From Candidatus Saccharimonadota bacterium (GTDB lineage Bacteria > Patescibacteriota > Microgenomatia > UBA1406 > GWC2-37-13), in NCBI GenBank assembly GCA_016432445.1, contig CP066689.1:1-32000 (forward strand): 32,000 nucleotides of DNA, in the 5' to 3' direction. Shown in pieces: positions 2 to 7,898 of this stretch (position 1 is the first letter of the stretch; each line of letters begins with the position of its first letter). The notes beneath the pieces are model-generated. The model was not told the DNA's origin and did not search any database. It saw only the letters and a program-made list of their open reading frames with translations. The position numbers were made by a program, and so were the translations under genes.

Positions 2-3000
2 AGTACTGGTCGGATGTGGTATCTGGGAAGCACTGGCGGCTCAGATAAAAAAATATACTTATACAATCACCTAGCCGATGATTTACTTCTTGGCACAAAT
101 GGAGCTACAAATGTCACCATCCAAAATGGCGGCAATGTCGGCATCGGGACGACGAGTCCGGGGGCACAGCTTCAAGTTACTTCCGGAGCTGCTGGCACTA
201 CGGGGCTAATTATCAGAGGAGCAGCCTCTCAAACAGGTAACTTTTTGGGTTTTCAAAGATCTAATGGAGATTCATATCTGACCAGTGAACCTAATTCAGG
301 CACAGATTATAGAATGAAAACCAAAATTTATAACACGGTAGGCGCAAATGCTGACTATGCAGTTCTGGCTTGGTCTTATTTAGTAACCGGCGCTTTTAGT
401 ATAGGAACATACGCGGATGGCGCCGGTACTGCCCAACCACTTGTATTGGGTGTAGGAGCACAGGCTATGAGGATTGCCTCTGGCAATAATATAGGTATTG
501 GAGCCGAGTTTTCTACAGATAATGTGCCGGGTGAGGCACTTACTATTAGGGACAGTGGCCGTAATTTTGCTATCAACATGAACAAAATCTATAGCGACCT
601 GACTGCTACGGCATCCTCAGGAGGCAGTTTGACAGCAAATACATATTACTTTGTGGTAGTTGCCGTGGACGGGGCAGGAGGAACTACTGCTAAAAATACT
701 GAAAGATCAGCCACAGTTGATGGAGCAACAACCGATAGGGTAGCACTTAGTTGGAATGCAGTACAAGGAGCGGTTTCCTACAGGATTTATAAAGGAACCG
801 CTGCTGGTGAGGAGGATAGATATCAAACTTCCACCACTAATTCCTATAATTATGACTCTGATACAGGAGCTACTCTTGGGACTCCCCCAGTTACTACTAC
901 AGCTTATGTAGCTAAAATAGCCAACAATGGCAACAACTCATGGTTTAATGGAGGGAATGTAGGCATTGGGACAGCCAACCCCCTCGGATCTTTACATGTT
1001 GGAACAACATCTTTCTTTGTCGCTACAAATGGTAATGTGGGGATTGGGACAACAAATCCAAGTCAAAAACTAGAAGTGGCTTATAACGGTGGTAGTAGCG
1101 GCGATTTTGTAAGGATAACTGCGGCAAGCAGTATTGTAAATAAAGCAGAAATAAGGGGATATAGCTCAGGAGGAACAGTCACTGCACCAACAATTACAGC
1201 TACAGATGATGAGCTAGTTAACTTAGCAGGATATGGGTACGATACAACCGGAGCAAGTGATTACAAATTTGGTGGAGCAATAGACATTAATAGAGATAGT
1301 GGCGTAGGAAACTCAGCTCGTATTCCAGGCTATATCAGATTTAGAACTTCACAATCAAACGATTCAACAATCTATGAAAGAATGAGAATAACCAGCACAG
1401 GCAATGTTGGCATTGGGACAACTAATCCAACTGTACCTTTACACATCCGTAGCTCTGTCGCTGAAGTTAGAGTTGATGATGGCGGCGGTGATGTGGGAGC
1501 TTTACAGATTTCCAGCGGTAATGTCCGCATGGGTACTATTAGCGGTCACCCCCTTTGGCTAATGACCAACAGCACTTCAAGAGGTTCGCTCAGCGCCAAT
1601 GGCGGGTTTGCCTGGGGTAATACCTTTGCGTCATATGATCCGGGATCAACGAATATGATTGTTCAAGGCAATGTCGGTATTGGTATATCCAGTCCAGGAC
1701 AACAAAAACTGGAAGTAGCAGGGAATATCCAGATTGCCGCCAGCGGTACCCTCACAGCCGGAGCTAATGATTTAAACCTTGGCGCCGCAAGTTCAACAGA
1801 AACTAAAACCCTACAGATGTTTTACCGGACGTGGAGAGGACCTGACGATCTTGCTCTTTACACCGGAAGTACAGCCGGAGATTTCCGTGTCTATACTAAA
1901 AATTCCGGAGGCACAGATACAGAAAGACTCTGGATTACTGATGGCGACACCTCTAATATTATTTTCAGTAACGGCAATGTGGGTATTGGTACCACTTCTC
2001 CATTCGGCATGCTTCAGGTTGGCTCAACTAGCTCACCTTATGCCCCTGCTTTTTTTGTCTCGATTGGCAGTAACGTCGGGATCGGGACAACTGGTCCAGA
2101 TGCAAAACTCCGCGTGAGCGGATCTCTTATTGTTGGTGATTTAGCTAATGGATCACGTCAAGCATTTGAAGTCAATAAAGACAACGGTACTGTTTCCATC
2201 GGAAGCGCAAGCCAAGATGGTGAGTTATCTATCCGAAATACTGCAGGAAATAGAAACACATATTTTGAGAGTGTAGAAACGGAAACATCGTGGATAAATG
2301 TACTAGGAAGCGGCAAATTGGGCGTCGGGACAACTGCACCGTCTTCTAAACTTCAGGTTGCTGGTAATGTATCTATCGGTTATGCCGGTTCAAACAGTCC
2401 CGCTCCATCCAACAGTCTGGCTGTGTCAGGCAGCATCGGCATCGGGACAACTAGCCCCAATACTGCAACCCGCAGTTATACCCTAAATGTTCAAGGTGAC
2501 ATGATTGCTCAAACTTTTTACGACCTTAATGATGAAAGATATGTTATCGATCCAGCCGGAACAAGCTATATAAACGATTTAACTATCTGGGGAAATAACA
2601 CGATAAAAGGTCTTCCTACCGGCAGTACCGGTACTAACTACTCACCTCTCGTTCTCATAGGCTCCGGCAGTACAGCTACCACCTCCGTTTGTATTGATAC
2701 CGGCGGCGGCAATTGTGACGGTAAACTTGATGCCGGGACTATTGATCCTCCCTACACTATCAATGGTAAAAAGTATGCCACTTACCTGTCCTCAATGATA
2801 GGAATAAAGGAAGAAACCACCGGCGCAATTCAAACTTCTCAGTATATTACTGATACTGGGTACCAGTATGTTGTTGATTTTAATGATCTGGTAGAAGGCT
2901 CAGATTTATGGCTTTTCTCAAAGACGACTAATCTTAAAAAAAATCTTGATAAATTAGTGGCTCTTTTGACTCCGTCAGACAATACCCGTACCTGGTACAA

Positions 3001-4987
3001 AATAGATAAAGAAAATCTAAGATTAACTATCTTTAGTTCCCGCCCGACCACTATCTCTTATCGTCTGACTGCCCCAAGATTTGATCATGAAATATGGACA
3101 AACAGCCGTGAAGACGGAGGAAGCGGATTTATTATTGATGATCCGGATGTAGTCAGTAATCTTGCCCTAAATAATGACGGCAACGTCAGCTCTGTTTCGT
3201 ATACAATTGAAAAATCTTCGACATCCGACATTCGATCTTCGAATATCGAAAATCTAACATCGAATATCTACTCTCTCAAAGATTCCTTCGGTAATCTTAT
3301 CACCGAGGCCGCCGCCTACTCCAAAGCCACTATTGCAAACCTAACAGCAGGGATTATCACAGCCGAGGAAGTTCGTAGTTCGTCGTTCGTGGTTCGTAGC
3401 ATGGAAGCCATAACATCGAATATCGAAAATCTAACATCGAAGATTTTAAGCGCTACTGACGCCACCATCGCCCGCCTTATCGTTCAGGAAAAAATTATCT
3501 CCCCAGTTGTGGAAACTAAAGACCTAACCGTAACCGAAACAGCCAATTTGAACGAGATCAAACCAGTAGATAAAGATATCACAATCAATCTAGATAGTTC
3601 TGGGTCATGGGTTATGGGTGATGGGTCAAATCAAAACCCAGAACTCACAACCCAAAACCCACAACCATCAGATTCTGGTCCTCTTGCAAAATTAATCATC
3701 AAAGGCTTGGAGGGTAAAACCGCCGCCTCAATTGACGCTGCCGGCAACGCCACATTCTCAGGCACATTAACAGCTGAGGAAGTTCGTAGTTCGTCGTTCG
3801 TAGTTCGTAGCATGGAAGCCATAACATCGAATATCGAAAATCTAAAATCGAAAGAAGCAACGATATCCGGTACGCTAACCGCTAAAGAAGTAAAGGCAGA
3901 AAACATTGATAATCTTGAATCAAATGTCCAAAATTTATCATCGACTATCGAAGATCGAACATCGAATATCGATCAGATGAGCAATGACATCAATGACATT
4001 CAAGCCACCCTCGCCAAGATCAAGAGTGAACCTCTTCCTGATGCCCAGTATTATCAAAACATTAACAATAGTTCTGAGTTATGGGTTATGAGTGATGGGT
4101 CAAGTGCAACTGAATCAGCCCAAATTAATTCTGAACTCATAACCCAAAACCCACAACCCATAACCGATCTCACCGTCACCGGTTCCTCCAACCTCTACGA
4201 TGCCACCATTACCAACACGGCTGTTATCGGCAGTCTGTTTATGAAAGATAACTCTATCTTGGCTCTTTCCAGCGAGCTCAAACTTTCCTCACTCTCAATC
4301 ATTAATCTTTTTGACGGCGCCGTGGTCATCGCCAAAGATGGAACAATAACAACCAAAGGCACGTTAGTTGCTGAAGGCGGAATAAAGACTAATGAGATTA
4401 AACCAATAAATGAAGGGGAGGATGTAAGTGTCATCCTGAAGACGAAGTCTGAAGGATCTCTCGCGAATGCGAGTAATGCTGAAACAAGTTCAGAGATTCT
4501 TCGCTCCGCTCAGAATGACAATGCTAAATTCCAAATTCAAAATGAATTGGGTGAAAATGTTGCTTCAATCGACGCCTCAGGCTCGGCAAAATTCAACAGT
4601 CTCTCACTTAACAAATATATGGAAGCTACATCATCTGCCGCCATAATCGCCGCTCCTGATAACTTTGATAAAAATGGACTTTACGCTCCAGCTATTGAAA
4701 CCACTGTTGAAACCGCCGGAGTCGGTATAGTTCCTCAAAACCAAACTGAGGTAGTTATATATAATAATACTATTAAAGAAGATTCCCTCATCTATCTCAC
4801 CCCAACATCGAATATCGAAAATCGAACATCGGCAAGCCTAACTATAACCAAAAAACAATCTTGCCCCAGTCAAGAATCTAAGATCGAAGATCTAACATCT
4901 AAGATCTCGTGTAAGCCATACTTTAAAGTCGCCATACCTTCTCCAACTGTAGCACCAGTTAACTTCAACTGGCTCATTATTAATTAA
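2..4987 (+). CDS. giant GNVGIGT-repeat surface/adhesin-like protein (tail-fibre-like), probably 5' partial
   Basis: Longest ORF in the window (track 14..4987). The frame is open from nt 2, and there is no N-terminal signal or TM segment, unlike the paralog at 5124, so the start probably lies upstream of the window. About ten G-N-V-G-I-G-T-T-x-P motifs and an FN3-like segment (ALSWNAVQGAVSYRIYKG). The C-terminal third is built from short repeat modules. Function is inferred from motif resemblance only. Confidence 0.8.
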   Translation, partial: STGRMWYLGSTGGSDKKIYLYNHLADDLLLGTNGATNVTIQNGGNVGIGTTSPGAQLQVTSGAAGTTGLIIRGAASQTGNFLGFQRSNGDSYLTSEPNSGTDYRMKTKIYNTVGANADYAVLAWSYLVTGAFSIGTYADGAGTAQPLVLGVGAQAMRIASGNNIGIGAEFSTDNVPGEALTIRDSGRNFAINMNKIYSDLTATASSGGSLTANTYYFVVVAVDGAGGTTAKNTERSATVDGATTDRVALSWNAVQGAVSYRIYKGTAAGEEDRYQTSTTNSYNYDSDTGATLGTPPVTTTAYVAKIANNGNNSWFNGGNVGIGTANPLGSLHVGTTSFFVATNGNVGIGTTNPSQKLEVAYNGGSSGDFVRITAASSIVNKAEIRGYSSGGTVTAPTITATDDELVNLAGYGYDTTGASDYKFGGAIDINRDSGVGNSARIPGYIRFRTSQSNDSTIYERMRITSTGNVGIGTTNPTVPLHIRSSVAEVRVDDGGGDVGALQISSGNVRMGTISGHPLWLMTNSTSRGSLSANGGFAWGNTFASYDPGSTNMIVQGNVGIGISSPGQQKLEVAGNIQIAASGTLTAGANDLNLGAASSTETKTLQMFYRTWRGPDDLALYTGSTAGDFRVYTKNSGGTDTERLWITDGDTSNIIFSNGNVGIGTTSPFGMLQVGSTSSPYAPAFFVSIGSNVGIGTTGPDAKLRVSGSLIVGDLANGSRQAFEVNKDNGTVSIGSASQDGELSIRNTAGNRNTYFESVETETSWINVLGSGKLGVGTTAPSSKLQVAGNVSIGYAGSNSPAPSNSLAVSGSIGIGTTSPNTATRSYTLNVQGDMIAQTFYDLNDERYVIDPAGTSYINDLTIWGNNTIKGLPTGSTGTNYSPLVLIGSGSTATTSVCIDTGGGNCDGKLDAGTIDPPYTINGKKYATYLSSMIGIKEETTGAIQTSQYITDTGYQYVVDFNDLVEGSDLWLFSKTTNLKKNLDKLVALLTPSDNTRTWYKIDKENLRLTIFSSRPTTISYRLTAPRFDHEIWTNSREDGGSGFIIDDPDVVSNLALNNDGNVSSVSYTIEKSSTSDIRSSNIENLTSNIYSLKDSFGNLITEAAAYSKATIANLTAGIITAEEVRSSSFVVRSMEAITSNIENLTSKILSATDATIARLIVQEKIISPVVETKDLTVTETANLNEIKPVDKDITINLDSSGSWVMGDGSNQNPELTTQNPQPSDSGPLAKLIIKGLEGKTAASIDAAGNATFSGTLTAEEVRSSSFVVRSMEAITSNIENLKSKEATISGTLTAKEVKAENIDNLESNVQNLSSTIEDRTSNIDQMSNDINDIQATLAKIKSEPLPDAQYYQNINNSSELWVMSDGSSATESAQINSELITQNPQPITDLTVTGSSNLYDATITNTAVIGSLFMKDNSILALSSELKLSSLSIINLFDGAVVIAKDGTITTKGTLVAEGGIKTNEIKPINEGEDVSVILKTKSEGSLANASNAETSSEILRSAQNDNAKFQIQNELGENVASIDASGSAKFNSLSLNKYMEATSSAAIIAAPDNFDKNGLYAPAIETTVETAGVGIVPQNQTEVVIYNNTIKEDSLIYLTPTSNIENRTSASLTITKKQSCPSQESKIEDLTSKISCKPYFKVAIPSPTVAPVNFNWLIIN
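3214..3271 (+). repeat. heptamer array family D (ATCGAAN / ATCTTCG units), in-frame
   Basis: atcttcg acatccg acattcg atcttcg aatatcg aaaatct aacatcg aatatct, encoding SSTSDIRSSNIENLTSNIY. Confidence 0.85.
3359..3441 (+). repeat. 83-nt duplicated module, copy 1 (family F GTTCGTN array plus family D array)
   Basis: gaagttcgtagttcgtcgttcgtggttcgtagcatggaagccataacatcgaatatcgaaaatctaacatcgaa. Differs at 3 of 83 positions from 3770..3852. Encodes TAEEVRSSSFVVRSMEAITSNIENLTSK. Confidence 0.9.
3597..3666 (+). repeat. family E inverted heptamer array (GGGTNAT units then AACCCAN units), in-frame
   Basis: gttctgggtcatgggttatgggtgatgggtc ... aaaacccagaactcacaacccaaaacccacaacc, encoding SGSWVMGDGSNQNPELTTQNPQP. 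Confidence 0.8.
3770..3852 (+). repeat. 83-nt duplicated module, copy 2
   Basis: Direct repeat of 3359..3441 at an offset of 411 nt, with 3 mismatches. Confidence 0.9.
3941..3975 (+). repeat. heptamer array family D, in-frame
   Basis: Five units: tcgacta tcgaaga tcgaaca tcgaata tcgatca, encoding STIEDRTSNIDQ. Confidence 0.85.
4071..4165 (+). repeat. family E inverted heptamer array, in-frame
   Basis: gttctgagttatgggttatgagtgatgggtc ... tctgaactcataacccaaaacccacaacccataacc. The right arm is nearly identical to intergenic 13282..13310. Confidence 0.85.
4430..4519 (+). repeat. 90-nt palindromic element with GTCATCCTGA...TCAGAATGAC termini, in-frame (30 codons)
   Basis: Terminal inverted repeats gtcatcctgaagacgaag / cttcgctccgctcagaatgac, with internal hairpins ctcgc-gaat-gcgag and ctgaa-acaag-ttcag. 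Encodes VILKTKSEGSLANASNAETSSEILRSAQND. Confidence 0.8.
4807..4831 (+). repeat. heptamer array family D, in-frame
   Basis: atcgaat atcgaaa atcgaac atcg, encoding TSNIENRTS. Confidence 0.8.
4876..4909 (+). repeat. heptamer array family C (ATCTAAG units), in-frame
   Basis: atctaag atcgaag atctaac atctaag atctcg, encoding SKIEDLTSKIS. Confidence 0.8.
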
Positions 4988-5078
4988 ATAAATCCAAATT
5001 ACAAATTTCAAATGTCAAATCAAATCTAAAATCTAAATGAAATGATTTGAAATTTGACATTTGGATTTTTGACATTTT
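4988..5078. repeat. family A heptamer hairpin array (AAATGTC/AAATCCA versus TTTGACA/TGGATTT), likely terminator of the upstream gene
   Basis: aaatccaaattacaaatttcaaatgtcaaatc ... gatttgaaatttgacatttggattttt. Inverted arms followed by a T-run, directly after the stop at 4987. Confidence 0.75.
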
Positions 5079-5123: not shown

Positions 5124-7898
5124 ATGAAAAAAACTACTCCTAAAAACCGCCATGTTCTTTTTATTGTCTTTTCTATTATCTTTATCGCTTCTACTTTTTA
5201 TCTTAACAGCAACAATGTAAAGCCTTACGTTAAAAGTATTGTCCCGAATCTAACCGAAGGTATCATACCTGATGCCTACGGAATAGGCGGATCATTAAAC
5301 ATCACCCAAACCGCAGGCACCTTTAACCCTACAACGCTCTCAGCCACCGGAAATATCACTACTTCAGGAGGCAACGTCGGCATCGGGACGGCCAACCCCC
5401 TCGGATCTTTACATGTTGGCAGCAGTGCCTTATTTGTCTCATCAACCAATGGCAATGTCGGGATCGGCACCACTGCTCCTGGAGCTTCGCTTCATATAAA
5501 TAATAGCGGTGGAATGTGGGTAGGCGCCTCAAGTAAACGCGTCTCAATTTTTACAAGTGGAGCAGGAGAAGATATTTCCTCTTCTAATACCTTGCACCTA
5601 AATTATAATAATGATAAAAGTGTTTCCATTGGCGAAGGTGGGACAAGTAATTTATATACCTCTGGCAACGTCGGCATCGGGACAGCTAATCCTGGGGCAA
5701 AGCTAGAATTAGGAAGTGGACAAATATTTGTTCCTACAGGTTCATCTACAGCGCCTAGTTATTCCTTCACTGGCGACTCTAATACTGGTATTTTTAGCCC
5801 AACAGGCGGAGGTGTTTCAATTGCCAGTGATGGCACAGAAACCTTTAGATTCCACAATGACGCTCTTAATTTGAAAGTTACTCAGGGTATAAGCTGGGTA
5901 GATTTACCAAGCGGCGGCGGGTATCTCTCATTAGTTTGGGGCGGTAATTATATTTTAGACCAAAGAGCTTCAACTAATGCTAACGCCTATAGAATATATA
6001 ACACTTATACGGATGGTTCAAATTATGAACGGGCGGAATTAAATTGGCAAGCCAACTCCAATGTTTTTACTATCCAAACCGCAGCAGGAGGCACAGGCAC
6101 AGTCAGGAATATTGCTTTAATGGGTGGCAATGTTGGCATCGGGACAACCTCTCCGACAACAATTTTAGGACAAAGTGGCAGCACTATGAATGCGAAAGCG
6201 ATGATTTCCGGTCCTGGAGGAGTGAGCACGCCAATTTTACAATTAACCGAAAATTCTGCTTATTCTTCCGGAACAGATAAATCGGCAGGAATATATTTTG
6301 GAGCAATGGATTCTGCAAGCAGTGTGCAAGCCTCATCCTCAATATTAGGTATTTCAAACTTTACAGCTTCTCAAGCTGGGACAGGCGCTATTGCTTTTAG
6401 AACTAAAGGTACTCATAATATTGATGACACAGATGTTGAGAGAATGAGAATTACAAGTACCGGCAATCTTGGCATTGGCACCACTAATCCGGGCGCAAAA
6501 CTTGAACTCACATATAATCCTGCTGCCGCAGCAATGATCGGCTTGGGAATTGGTGCCAGCGCTGGCGGATCAACTACAGGCAACGCCACCATCAATTTAC
6601 AAGCTGATGTTGCTAACGCAGATATTTCCATGGCCAGAAGCGGTCTTACTCATTTTGGAAACAACTTAATTCTAAGAAACAACGGAACTTCTACAAATGC
6701 TGGGATTACTTTTCAAACTAACGGTTCAAACGGACGGATGACCATCACAAATAGCGGCAACGTCGGCATCGGCACCACTAATCCTTATGCATCAGTTTAC
6801 GTTGCCAACTCTGGTTTAACAAAGGGTTACGGCTTAGAGTACGGTATGATTCTTAGCAGCGCCGATGATAGAGGAATTCAACTAAGAAGTAATTATGATC
6901 CTCGCGATGATGGCCTCGTAGACTCAAGTTATGGTTCATGGGTAATAGGTATGCTTGGAAGAATGGGCACGGGATCAACAACCCCAATGTTAGGTTTTTG
7001 GTGGTCACCTCCCAATACTGAACCCGTTGCGAACGGCGCTAAATATTATTTTAAAAGCGATGGCAATGGCCAAGCCGCTAGTTCATGGACAAGCGGTTTA
7101 GGTGACTTGGCAGAAATTTATAAAGTCACCGGATCATACGAAAAAGGAGACTTGGTCGTATCTGATAAATCAACTCCTAATGCTATGATAAAAAGCGCTG
7201 GCAAGCCTTATGATCCAGACATCATGGGTATCATCTCTGCTGCTCCCGGTTTAGTCATCGGAGCTGGCAATTTAGATGATCCAAACCAAGGAGAACCGAT
7301 TGCCCTTACCGGAAAAGTATCAACTAAAGCTTCTTTGGAAAACGGAGCCATTAATATCGGTGATCCTCTTACTTCTTCTTCAACTCCCGGTACAGTCATG
7401 AAAGCCACAAAATATGGGAAAATTATAGGAAGAGCTTTGGAGTTTTTTGACGGCAGTGTTAAGGTAAGTAAAGGTACAATTGATATTTTAAACCAAAAAG
7501 CTAAGGCAGAGGATAAACCCAAAATTCCTTATGAGGAAACAAAAGCTCCCAACACGTATAATCATGGAAAAATTTTGGTTTTCGTTGATGTTTCCTTGTA
7601 TGACCCTGATCTCTACCTTACCTCAACCGGAGACCTTAAACTCTTAAGCTCTAATCCCTCTAATCCTTCTTCTTCCTCCTACTCCCTCTCTGACAAAAAC
7701 GGTATTATTGACCGGATAGGAGCGTTTGCTCAAATCGTCGTCGCTAAACTCCAGGCCGGCATTATAGAAACAAAAAAACTGATTGTCAGTGGAGTTGATA
7801 TACTGGAAAAACTCAATGATTTGTCCAAAAAAGTTGATCAACAGCAAAAAGAAATCCAGATTTTAAAACAAGAAATTAACTCTCTCAAAGCAAACTAA
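5124..7898 (+). CDS. GNVGIGT-repeat surface protein, paralog of the upstream giant gene
   Basis: 924-aa ORF with an N-terminal signal-anchor (VLFIVFSIIFIASTFYL) and six GNVGIGT motifs. Shares the blocks GGNVGIGTANPLGSLHVG (29 nt identical at DNA level) and ERMRITSTGN(V/L)GIGTTNP with gene 1. Coiled-coil-like C-terminus (QQQKEIQILKQEINSLK). Confidence 0.85.
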   Translation: MKKTTPKNRHVLFIVFSIIFIASTFYLNSNNVKPYVKSIVPNLTEGIIPDAYGIGGSLNITQTAGTFNPTTLSATGNITTSGGNVGIGTANPLGSLHVGSSALFVSSTNGNVGIGTTAPGASLHINNSGGMWVGASSKRVSIFTSGAGEDISSSNTLHLNYNNDKSVSIGEGGTSNLYTSGNVGIGTANPGAKLELGSGQIFVPTGSSTAPSYSFTGDSNTGIFSPTGGGVSIASDGTETFRFHNDALNLKVTQGISWVDLPSGGGYLSLVWGGNYILDQRASTNANAYRIYNTYTDGSNYERAELNWQANSNVFTIQTAAGGTGTVRNIALMGGNVGIGTTSPTTILGQSGSTMNAKAMISGPGGVSTPILQLTENSAYSSGTDKSAGIYFGAMDSASSVQASSSILGISNFTASQAGTGAIAFRTKGTHNIDDTDVERMRITSTGNLGIGTTNPGAKLELTYNPAAAAMIGLGIGASAGGSTTGNATINLQADVANADISMARSGLTHFGNNLILRNNGTSTNAGITFQTNGSNGRMTITNSGNVGIGTTNPYASVYVANSGLTKGYGLEYGMILSSADDRGIQLRSNYDPRDDGLVDSSYGSWVIGMLGRMGTGSTTPMLGFWWSPPNTEPVANGAKYYFKSDGNGQAASSWTSGLGDLAEIYKVTGSYEKGDLVVSDKSTPNAMIKSAGKPYDPDIMGIISAAPGLVIGAGNLDDPNQGEPIALTGKVSTKASLENGAINIGDPLTSSSTPGTVMKATKYGKIIGRALEFFDGSVKVSKGTIDILNQKAKAEDKPKIPYEETKAPNTYNHGKILVFVDVSLYDPDLYLTSTGDLKLLSSNPSNPSSSSYSLSDKNGIIDRIGAFAQIVVAKLQAGIIETKKLIVSGVDILEKLNDLSKKVDQQQKEIQILKQEINSLKAN

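What the first reader, a model, noticed from the sequence alone, without database searches (positions are those of the whole stretch)
3214..4909. The C-terminal third of the giant surface protein is a mosaic of repeat elements, including a 96%-identical 83-nt duplication
Between 3214 and 4909 I count at least ten modules from families C, D, E and F plus the 90-nt element, separated by short unique linkers. The segments 3359-3441 and 3770-3852 are direct repeats differing at 3 of 83 positions. Two complete family E inverted arrays (3597-3666 and 4071-4165) are translated as ...WVMGDGS...TQNPQPS... and ...WVMSDGS...TQNPQPIT.... The exposed part of a likely adhesin therefore appears to be assembled from the same mobile or expandable units that litter the spacers. 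That makes it a candidate for rapid length and sequence variation by recombination or slippage between modules. Changes of one or two 7-nt units would switch the distal domain off (contingency-locus logic). This is inference, and the units are degenerate, which lowers the slippage rate.
Basis: partly seen in the sequence, partly recalled or inferred. Interest (0 to 1): 0.62.

Follow-up and report, generated by a model that had tools for sequence, protein, structure and literature searches.

The report
Repeat-colonised linkers in a fibre protein
The far end of a giant fibre-like surface protein in a tiny Roizmanbacteria (CPR) genome carries 13 in-frame copies of the genome's small hairpin and 7-base repeats. 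All of them sit in the floppy linkers between conserved parts, so this looks like tolerated selfish or repeat DNA and not a genetic on/off switch.

Summary
The 83-nt duplication differs at 3 of 83 positions. I count 12 heptamer arrays plus one 93-nt palindrome in 3214-4909, all read in frame.

This segment has the densest heptamer arrays of any coding stretch in the 1.10-Mb genome: 17.5% of its bases, against 0.40% for coding DNA overall. "Mosaic" overstates it, though. The modules make up 34% of the DNA. The rest is a conserved ~620-aa C-terminal module, 40-50% identical in many Microgenomates fibre proteins.

The modules lie exactly in the non-conserved, indel-rich linkers. Module residues show identity 0.10 and gap fraction 0.42, against 0.48 and 0.05 for the scaffold. 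In 12 other lineages, 21 of 23 arrays fall in the same linkers, and where checked (two lineages) they are built from that lineage's own genome-wide heptamer family.

The contingency-locus reading is not supported. No array has more than 2.1 perfect units, MutS and MutL are present, and the arrays lie in the 3' third of the gene. Recombination between the two direct-repeat pairs (spacings 411 and 474 nt, both in frame) remains possible but untested.

This scan had already found the genome-wide phenomenon elsewhere in this genome. This locus is its extreme coding case.

The parts
2..4987 (+). Giant fibre-like ORF of 1661 aa. Its 5' end is cut by the assembly gap at the contig junction.
   Evidence: The stalk repeats match Bdellovibrio MAT fibre 8oml at E=1.4e-10.
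3101..4984 (+). Conserved ~620-aa C-terminal module (P0002). It has two long helices (residues 96-124 and 267-308) and a beta-rich end domain (residues ~475-628).
   Evidence: Homologs at 40-50% identity in 62 of 201 genomes of the order (counting G000; threshold E<=1e-40) and in over 100 database proteins. AF2 model.
3214..3270 (+). Site S1: TTCGANN/TCGAANN heptamer arrays, read as SDIRSSNIENLTSNIY.
   Evidence: Identity to homologs 0.10, gap fraction 0.36.
3359..3441 (+). 83-nt repeat, copy 1. It comprises 12 nt of host-like TAEE codons, a left arm (AGTTCGT)x4 at 3370-3399, a loop, and a right arm (ATCGAAN)x4 at 3412-3441.
   Evidence: Weak hairpin, -21.1 kcal/mol, z=-1.9.
3597..3666 (+). 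Family E hairpin 1: GGGTNAT x4 facing ACCCNNA x4. Its left arm is the only canonical G-quadruplex motif in the gene.
   Evidence: Folds at -32.8 kcal/mol, z=-5.2. Matches intergenic copies. G4 motif.
3770..3852 (+). 83-nt repeat, copy 2, lying 411 nt (137 codons) after copy 1.
   Evidence: It sits between two SGTLTA[EK]EV host motifs.
3937..3972 (+). Site S6: TCGAANN array inside the long helix, with no length change relative to homologs.
4071..4165 (+). Family E hairpin 2, with arms at 4071-4100 and 4133-4165 and a 41-nt loop. It lies 474 nt (158 codons) after E1.
   Evidence: -26.5 kcal/mol, z=-2.7. 27/27 identity to 936326-936352.
4430..4522 (+). It is single-copy in this genome.
   Evidence: Folds at -33.7 kcal/mol, z=-3.0. 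No second copy here. Matches, often several per genome, in 72 of 200 other genomes of the order, up to 94% identical.
4804..4831 (+). Site S9: TCGAANN array in a loop that is 3 aa longer than in homologs.
4873..4907 (+). Site S10: ATCTAAG-family array inside a Cys-Cys loop of variable length.
   Evidence: The 31-mer is shared with 9 or more dispersed loci. Loop alignment.
4990..5068 (+). Intergenic heptamer hairpin (CAAATNN family) directly after the stop codon.
   Evidence: I3, 24-nt arms, 92% complementary.

Best explanation
The last ~620 residues are a conserved C-terminal module of a fibre-like surface protein whose stalk is related to Bdellovibrio MAT fibres. The inter-domain linkers and loops of this module are structurally permissive. 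They have accumulated copies of the genome's small hairpin repeats: opposed arrays of degenerate 7-nt units, plus one 93-nt palindrome.

Shown:
- The units belong to dispersed, genome-wide families.
- They occupy only the non-conserved, indel-rich positions.
- Other lineages carry their own heptamer families in the same linkers.

Inferred:
- The copies arrive by copy-and-paste or gene conversion from other copies. Inside the gene they spread by local duplication; the 83-nt pair carries 12 nt of host flank, and the two E copies are sisters.
- Only copies that fall in the one open frame and in a tolerant loop survive. Because 7 x 3 = 21 nt = 7 aa, an array reads as a 7-residue periodic peptide. 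Six arrays give the pattern S-[NK]-I-[EQ]-[ND]-[LR]-T, an I-x-x-L-x-x-x spacing compatible with the surrounding helical stalk.
- The result is slow, lineage-specific diversification of linker length and sequence, not rapid switching.
For: - Genome-wide specificity for period 7: 7285 nt flagged, at most 1175 nt for periods 5-11, and 0 nt in a Markov control. Non-coding DNA is 2.8% flagged, coding DNA 0.40%, and this segment 17.5%. It is the top coding segment; the next has 129 nt.
- Dispersed identical copies.
- Module residues show identity 0.10 and gap fraction 0.42, against 0.48 and 0.05 for scaffold residues across 31 homologs.
- 21 of 23 arrays in 12 other lineages map to the same sites.
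- The units in those lineages are genome-wide families of their own: G004 CTACCAR has 127 hits against 0 in the control, and G161 CCTAAC has 14 against 1.
- The 93-nt element is found, often in several copies, in related genomes.
- AF2 gives pLDDT below 50 for most module positions and 75-89 for the end domain.
- RecA is present.
Against: - No enzyme that moves the repeats has been identified. The three Y1_Tnp-like ORFs are not flanked by arrays.
- No target-site duplications or clean empty sites can be defined, because the linkers vary in every homolog.
- The composite 83-nt element and its TTCGTNN arm are nearly private to this gene: only 4 such arrays exist in the genome. That fits local origin as well as import.
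- The AF2 model is a low-confidence monomer (mean pLDDT 56), so 'disordered linker' is only indicative.
- MAFFT tends to stack insertions in the same columns, which inflates the apparent coincidence of sites.
Confidence: 0.6

Rival explanations
1. Contingency locus. Slippage by one or two 7-nt units toggles production of the distal domain at a useful rate.
For: Any change of 7 or 14 nt gives a stop within 31 aa. The gene is a surface fibre.
Against: The longest perfect tract in every array is 13-15 nt, at most 2.1 units. The genome maximum is 4.7 units. The known heptanucleotide switch hmw1A was studied with 13-24 units (PMC8262952). MutS and MutL are present. The arrays lie in the 3' third, ahead of the best-conserved domain.
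Confidence: 0.04
2. Arrays are born in place. They arise by slippage or duplication of short proto-repeats in unconstrained linker DNA and are homogenised locally, not imported from elsewhere.
For: TTCGTNN arrays are almost confined to this gene. The 83-nt pair includes host codons. G000 and its closest relative G161 both start an AGT-core array right after TAEE at the same site, with different units. Units differ between lineages.
Against: Identical 27-31-mers, with the same order of degenerate units, are shared with distant loci. Each lineage's arrays belong to its genome-wide family. The 93-nt palindrome is clearly an imported family member.
Confidence: 0.18
3. The modules are selected features. 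They could be spacers or coiled-coil extensions that tune fibre length, or mRNA hairpins at domain boundaries that pace translation of a giant protein.
For: The arrays sit at domain boundaries. Six arrays encode I-x-x-L heptads, and two of those lie in predicted long helices. The same linkers are filled again and again in other lineages. E1 folds at -32.8 kcal/mol.
Against: The same repeats occur in enzyme genes and in spacers. Their sequences are not conserved between lineages. The pattern is equally expected from passive tolerance.
Confidence: 0.12
4. The 83-nt pair is a template/variable repeat pair of a diversity-generating retroelement.
For: Two near-identical repeats lie in the C-terminal part of a CPR surface protein.
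Against: No reverse transcriptase is found in the genome. One of the three mismatches is C/T, not at an adenine. Both copies lie in the same ORF.
Confidence: 0.01

Closest known systems
Rickettsia palindromic elements (RPE; as summarised in PMC10969869)
   Same: Both are small hairpin-forming repeats that are dispersed through a reduced genome. Both are found between genes and, in frame, inside intact genes. Both add lineage-specific peptide segments compatible with the fold.
   Different: These elements are much shorter (28-95 nt, against ~150 bp) and are built from degenerate 7-nt units, not a unique sequence. There is no sequence relationship. Here 13 copies pile up in one gene segment.
Bacterial heptanucleotide repeats (Xanthomonas/Nostoc GGGNATC, PMC4692102; Beggiatoaceae/cyanobacterial TAACTGA, PMC4679880)
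   Same: Both have a 7-nt unit, about four units per array, hundreds of arrays per genome, and over-representation outside coding DNA. Family E (GGGTNAT) resembles GGGNATC, and one arm is a G-quadruplex motif.
   Different: Here the arrays are usually paired as opposed, complementary arms that form hairpins. Several unrelated unit families coexist, and many arrays are translated.
Phase-variable simple-sequence-repeat (contingency) loci, e.g. H. influenzae hmw1A (ATCTTTC)n (PMC8262952)
   Same: Both involve a heptanucleotide unit, a surface adhesin gene, and the arithmetic of frame disruption.
   Different: Those tracts are long and perfect (13-24 units in the constructs studied) and lie in the promoter or 5' region. 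Here the tracts are degenerate, have at most 2.1 perfect units, and lie in the 3' third.
Bdellovibrio mosaic adhesive trimer (MAT) fibres (PMC10769870; PDB 8oml, 8ond)
   Same: The GNVGIGTT-type stalk repeats are homologous (E=1.4e-10). Both are large surface fibres, with S74 or other autoproteolytic domains in some relatives.
   Different: In MAT fibres the C-terminal tip is the variable part. Here the C-terminal ~620 aa is the conserved part, and only its linkers vary.

Membership tests
Contingency (phase-variable SSR) locus | Long tract of perfect tandem units that slips at high rate | tested here: not met
   Longest perfect tract is 13-15 nt (at most 2.1 units) in all 12 arrays.
Contingency (phase-variable SSR) locus | A change in unit number switches the product off | tested here: met
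   A simulated change of 7 or 14 nt gives a stop within 31 aa at every array.
Contingency (phase-variable SSR) locus | Tract length polymorphic within populations or between strains | not testable with these tools
The closest relative is about 50% identical.
RPE-like in-frame palindromic repeats | Hairpin-forming repeat with dispersed copies in the genome | tested here: met
   Folds of E1, E2 and the 93-nt element have z=-5.2, -2.7 and -3.0. Dispersed copies.
RPE-like in-frame palindromic repeats | Present in frame in intact genes and absent from homologs | tested here: met
   The ORF is open. Module residues show identity 0.10 and gap fraction 0.42 against homologs.
RPE-like in-frame palindromic repeats | Sequence homology to the Rickettsia RPE families, ~150 bp in length | not tested
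   Lengths here are 28-95 nt. No comparison with RPE sequences was run, so I claim an analogy and not membership.
Heptanucleotide SSR class (GGGNATC / TAACTGA / STRR type) | Tandem 7-nt units, abundant genome-wide, enriched outside genes | tested here: met
   366 TRF rows of period 7. Non-coding DNA is 2.8% flagged against 0.40% for coding.
MITE | Terminal inverted repeats plus a target-site duplication | tested here: inconclusive
   Inverted arms are present. No duplication or empty site can be defined because the linkers vary in all homologs.
MAT fibre superfamily | Sequence homology to the trimeric stalk repeats | tested here: met
   phmmer of P0001 against 8oml gives E=1.4e-10. The profile against 8ond gives E=6e-15.
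MAT fibre superfamily | Trimeric assembly and surface display | not testable with these tools
   Only a monomer AF2 model is available. The Foldseek top hits are tail fibres but are not significant (E>=0.07).
DGR variable region | Nearby reverse transcriptase and adenine-specific mismatches | tested here: not met
   No RVT_1 match in the genome. The mismatches are C/T, G/A and C/A.

The most novel reading that the evidence does not exclude
Heptamer-hairpin repeats may be a standing source of new protein sequence in Roizmanbacteria fibres. The same inter-domain linkers would be refilled lineage after lineage and the arrays homogenised in concert. Some arrays may already have been recruited as structure: the conserved KLKIxN strand at the start of the end domain is encoded by heptamer arrays in 8 lineages. 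In addition, the two in-frame direct-repeat pairs could let populations carry fibres that differ by 137 or 158 residues.
Probability: 0.15. Interest if true: 0.7.

Novelty: new variant of a known kind. Interest (0 to 1): 0.45.

Why it matters
CPR bacteria live attached to host cells, and their giant surface fibres are prime candidates for host recognition. This locus shows how repeat DNA that normally fills gene spacers is read through as protein, and where a large fibre tolerates it. It also shows that relatives use the same tolerant sites with different repeats. That gives a map of permissive linkers and a natural experiment in how non-coding repeats become coding sequence. It also removes a tempting but unsupported phase-variation story.

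Tried and rejected
- **Close strains:** none were found in metagenome contigs (best 43%), in 241 genomes of the order (best 50%), or in the 5.8-billion-protein collection with either the full-length or the 628-aa query (best 46-47%, and P0001 is alone in its 90% cluster).
- **Segmental duplication as the cause of the A-E-A-E order:** rejected. The stretches between the copies are unrelated, and each aligns to its own homologous segment.
- **DGR:** rejected, no reverse transcriptase.
- **Rfam:** only sub-threshold miRNA noise.
- **Pfam on the protein:** only weak coiled-coil hits.
- **Foldseek against PDB:** nothing significant.
- **Stop-avoidance hypothesis for the G in ATCGAAG at 4886:** rejected. 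Intergenic copies also carry a non-T base there.
- **Orthology of the G000 and G161 arrays at site S2:** doubtful, because they align to different arms.
- **Y1_Tnp-like ORFs as the mobilising enzyme:** they have no arrays at their flanks.
Full report
**Context.** The window is the first 32 kb of a single-contig, 1,103,789-bp genome with 35% GC. Earlier notes of this scan place it in Roizmanbacteria (CPR), and the named database relatives of the protein agree. The finding lies in one ORF, 2..4987 (+), of 1661 aa. Its 5' end is cut by the 100-N gap at the contig junction.

**Observation.**
- The two 83-nt segments differ at 3 of 83 positions: GCC/GCT, GTG/GTA and ACA/AAA. The longest identical run is 43 nt, against a maximum of 17 in 200 shuffles.
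- TRF and the repeat finder show twelve period-7 arrays between 3214 and 4907, plus a 93-nt palindrome at 4430-4522.
- Both family E units fold as periodic hairpins, E1 at -32.8 kcal/mol (z=-5.2) and E2 at -26.5 (z=-2.7). The palindrome folds at -33.7 (z=-3.0). The 83-nt units fold only weakly.

**Is it more than chance, and is it special?** I used a strict test: at least 17 of 21 matches at lag 7 within 28 nt.
- The genome has 7285 flagged nt for period 7, at most 1175 for periods 5-11, and 0 in a Markov control.
- Non-coding DNA is 2.8% flagged and coding DNA 0.40%.
- The C-terminal third (3101-4984) is 17.5% flagged (330 nt). It is the densest coding segment of the genome; the next has 129 nt. 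The N-terminal 3.1 kb of the same ORF has none.

**What the protein is.**
- The N-terminal GNVGIGTT repeats match the stalk of Bdellovibrio mosaic adhesive trimer (MAT) fibres. P0001 against 8oml gives E=1.4e-10, and the family profile against 8ond gives E=6e-15. These are surface-displayed trimeric fibres (PMC10769870).
- The last ~620 aa form a module conserved at 40-50% identity. It is found in 62 of 201 sampled genomes of the order (counting G000; threshold E<=1e-40) and in more than 100 database proteins with very different N-terminal parts.
- A monomer AF2 model is poor overall (mean pLDDT 56). It predicts two long helices (residues 96-124 and 267-308 of the module) and a confident beta-rich end domain (pLDDT 75-89). 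Most module positions score below 50.
- Foldseek finds nothing significant. Its top, non-significant hits are tail fibres.

**Where the modules sit.**
- I aligned 31 independent homologs. Module residues average identity 0.10 and gap fraction 0.42. The remaining residues of 3214-4909 average 0.48 and 0.05.
- The modules cover 576 of 1696 nt (34%). The segment is therefore a conserved scaffold with colonised linkers, not a mosaic built from repeats.
- The E units, the palindrome and the 4873-4907 array (inside a Cys-Cys loop) fill linkers whose length varies in every homolog. The 3937-3972 array overlays a helix without any length change.

**The same sites in other lineages.**
- Twelve of 31 other lineages carry heptamer arrays in this module, and 21 of their 23 arrays map to G000's sites.
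- Their units are different: CTACCAR in G004, CCTCSAA in G011, and AGTTAGG/CCTAACA in G161.
- In the two lineages checked, the units belong to a genome-wide family of that genome. CTACCAR gives 127 hits against 0 in the control, and CCTAAC gives 14 against 1.
- The site that holds the palindrome in G000 holds heptamer arrays in eight other lineages.
- Caveat: the aligner stacks insertions in the same columns, so "same linker" is safe but "same nucleotide" is not.

**Origin of the copies.**
- *Import is supported.* The 31-mer TCTAAGATCNAAGATCTAACATCTAAGATCT is shared by the gene and at least 9 dispersed loci, with the same order of degenerate units. There are 27/27 and 33/35 matches between the E arms and one intergenic hairpin at 936287-936352. 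The palindrome is single-copy here but has matches, often several per genome, in 72 of 200 related genomes, up to 94% identical.
- *Local spread is also evident.* The composite 83-nt unit exists only in this gene, and only four TTCGTNN arrays exist in the genome. The duplicated block includes 12 nt of host-type TAEE codons. E1 and E2 are each other's closest relatives.
- *No mover is known.* Three Y1_Tnp-like ORFs exist but are not flanked by arrays.

**Reading frame and peptide.** Because 3 x 7 = 21 nt, all three frames of a strand give the same 7-residue periodic peptide. For the ATCTAAG 31-mer only one of three frames is open, so survival inside a gene is a filter. Six arrays read as S-[NK]-I-[EQ]-[ND]-[LR]-T. 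That is an I-x-x-L-x-x-x spacing, and two of these arrays lie in the predicted long helices.

**The switch hypothesis.**
- The arithmetic is right: any change of 7 or 14 nt truncates the protein within 31 aa.
- The premise fails. Every array has at most 2.1 perfect units, and the genome maximum is 4.7.
- The known heptanucleotide switch in H. influenzae hmw1A was studied with 13-24 units, located in the promoter region (PMC8262952).
- MutS and MutL are present.
- A frameshift would remove the best-conserved domain.

I put this reading at about 4%.

**Recombination.**
- The two direct-repeat pairs are spaced by 411 and 474 nt, both multiples of three.
- The pairs have 43-nt and ~20-nt identical cores, and RecA is present.
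- In-frame loss or gain of 137 or 158 residues is therefore mechanistically possible.
- It could not be tested.

**Other rivals.**
- A DGR is excluded: there is no reverse transcriptase, and one mismatch is not at an adenine.
- In-place birth of arrays remains a partial alternative (about 0.18).
- A selected role, as spacer, coiled-coil extension or translational pacing signal, cannot be excluded (about 0.12).

**Comparison and novelty.**
- The behaviour matches Rickettsia palindromic elements, which are in-frame, lineage-specific and fold-compatible (PMC10969869).
- The building blocks resemble bacterial heptanucleotide repeats (PMC4692102 and PMC4679880).
- This is a new variant of those known kinds.
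- This scan had already described the genome-wide phenomenon at other places in this same genome.
- What this locus adds is the extreme density in one fibre gene, the recurrent use of the same linkers by different repeats in relatives, and a tested rejection of the phase-variation reading.

Noticed in passing
window 4517-4550, and homolog loci L008, L009, L017, L018, L032, L034, L036, L010: The conserved beta-strand that opens the end domain (KFQIQ in G000, KLKIxN in relatives) is encoded by CAAATNN-type heptamer arrays in eight lineages and by a weak 4-unit array in G000. Repeat DNA may have been recruited as structure here, or this A-rich strand may attract conversion.
   Followed up: partly
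G000 genome 1084450-1088229 (outside the window); homologs P0013, P0119, P0134 and others: A second GNVGIGTT fibre paralog, and many database homologs, begin with a phage-integrase SAM-like N-terminal domain (PF02899, E=1.5e-8 in P0013). This is an odd fusion for a fibre protein. The paralog is also the second most array-rich ORF.
   Followed up: no
homologs of window 3101-4984: In many relatives the conserved C-terminal module follows an autoproteolytic or splicing-type domain (Peptidase_S74 PF13884, Peptidase_G2 PF11962, Intein/Hint PF14890). The module may therefore be cleaved off or act as a separate unit.
   Followed up: no
window 4493-4521 (right arm of the 93-nt palindrome): A 27-29-nt stretch (TTCTTCGCTCCGCTCAGAATGAC and flanks) is 100% identical in genomes of different families of the order, whose proteins are only ~45% identical. 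This implies strong constraint or recent horizontal spread of the element.
   Followed up: partly
window 3602-3625: The left arm of E1 (GGGTCATGGGTTATGGGTGATGGG) is a canonical G-quadruplex motif on the sense strand. It is one of 23 in the genome and recalls the GGGNATC repeats of Xanthomonas and Nostoc (PMC4692102).
   Followed up: no
G000 genome 932572-932599, in ORF 931193-933520: A P-type (copper-type) ATPase carries a family E insertion read as GSGSWVMGSKKTQNSQLITHN, nearly the same peptide as in the fibre.
   Followed up: no
G000 genome 467221-467895, 954257-954946, 515912-516424: There are three Y1_Tnp (IS200/RAYT-like) ORFs with HxH and Tyr motifs. They are candidate movers of hairpin repeats, but no arrays lie within 500 nt of them.
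   Followed up: partly
window 5124-7898: The next gene is a 924-aa GNVGIGTT paralog with a Peptidase_G2/S74-like motif and a C-terminal coiled coil. It carries period-9 and period-13 repeats but no heptamer arrays.
   Followed up: no
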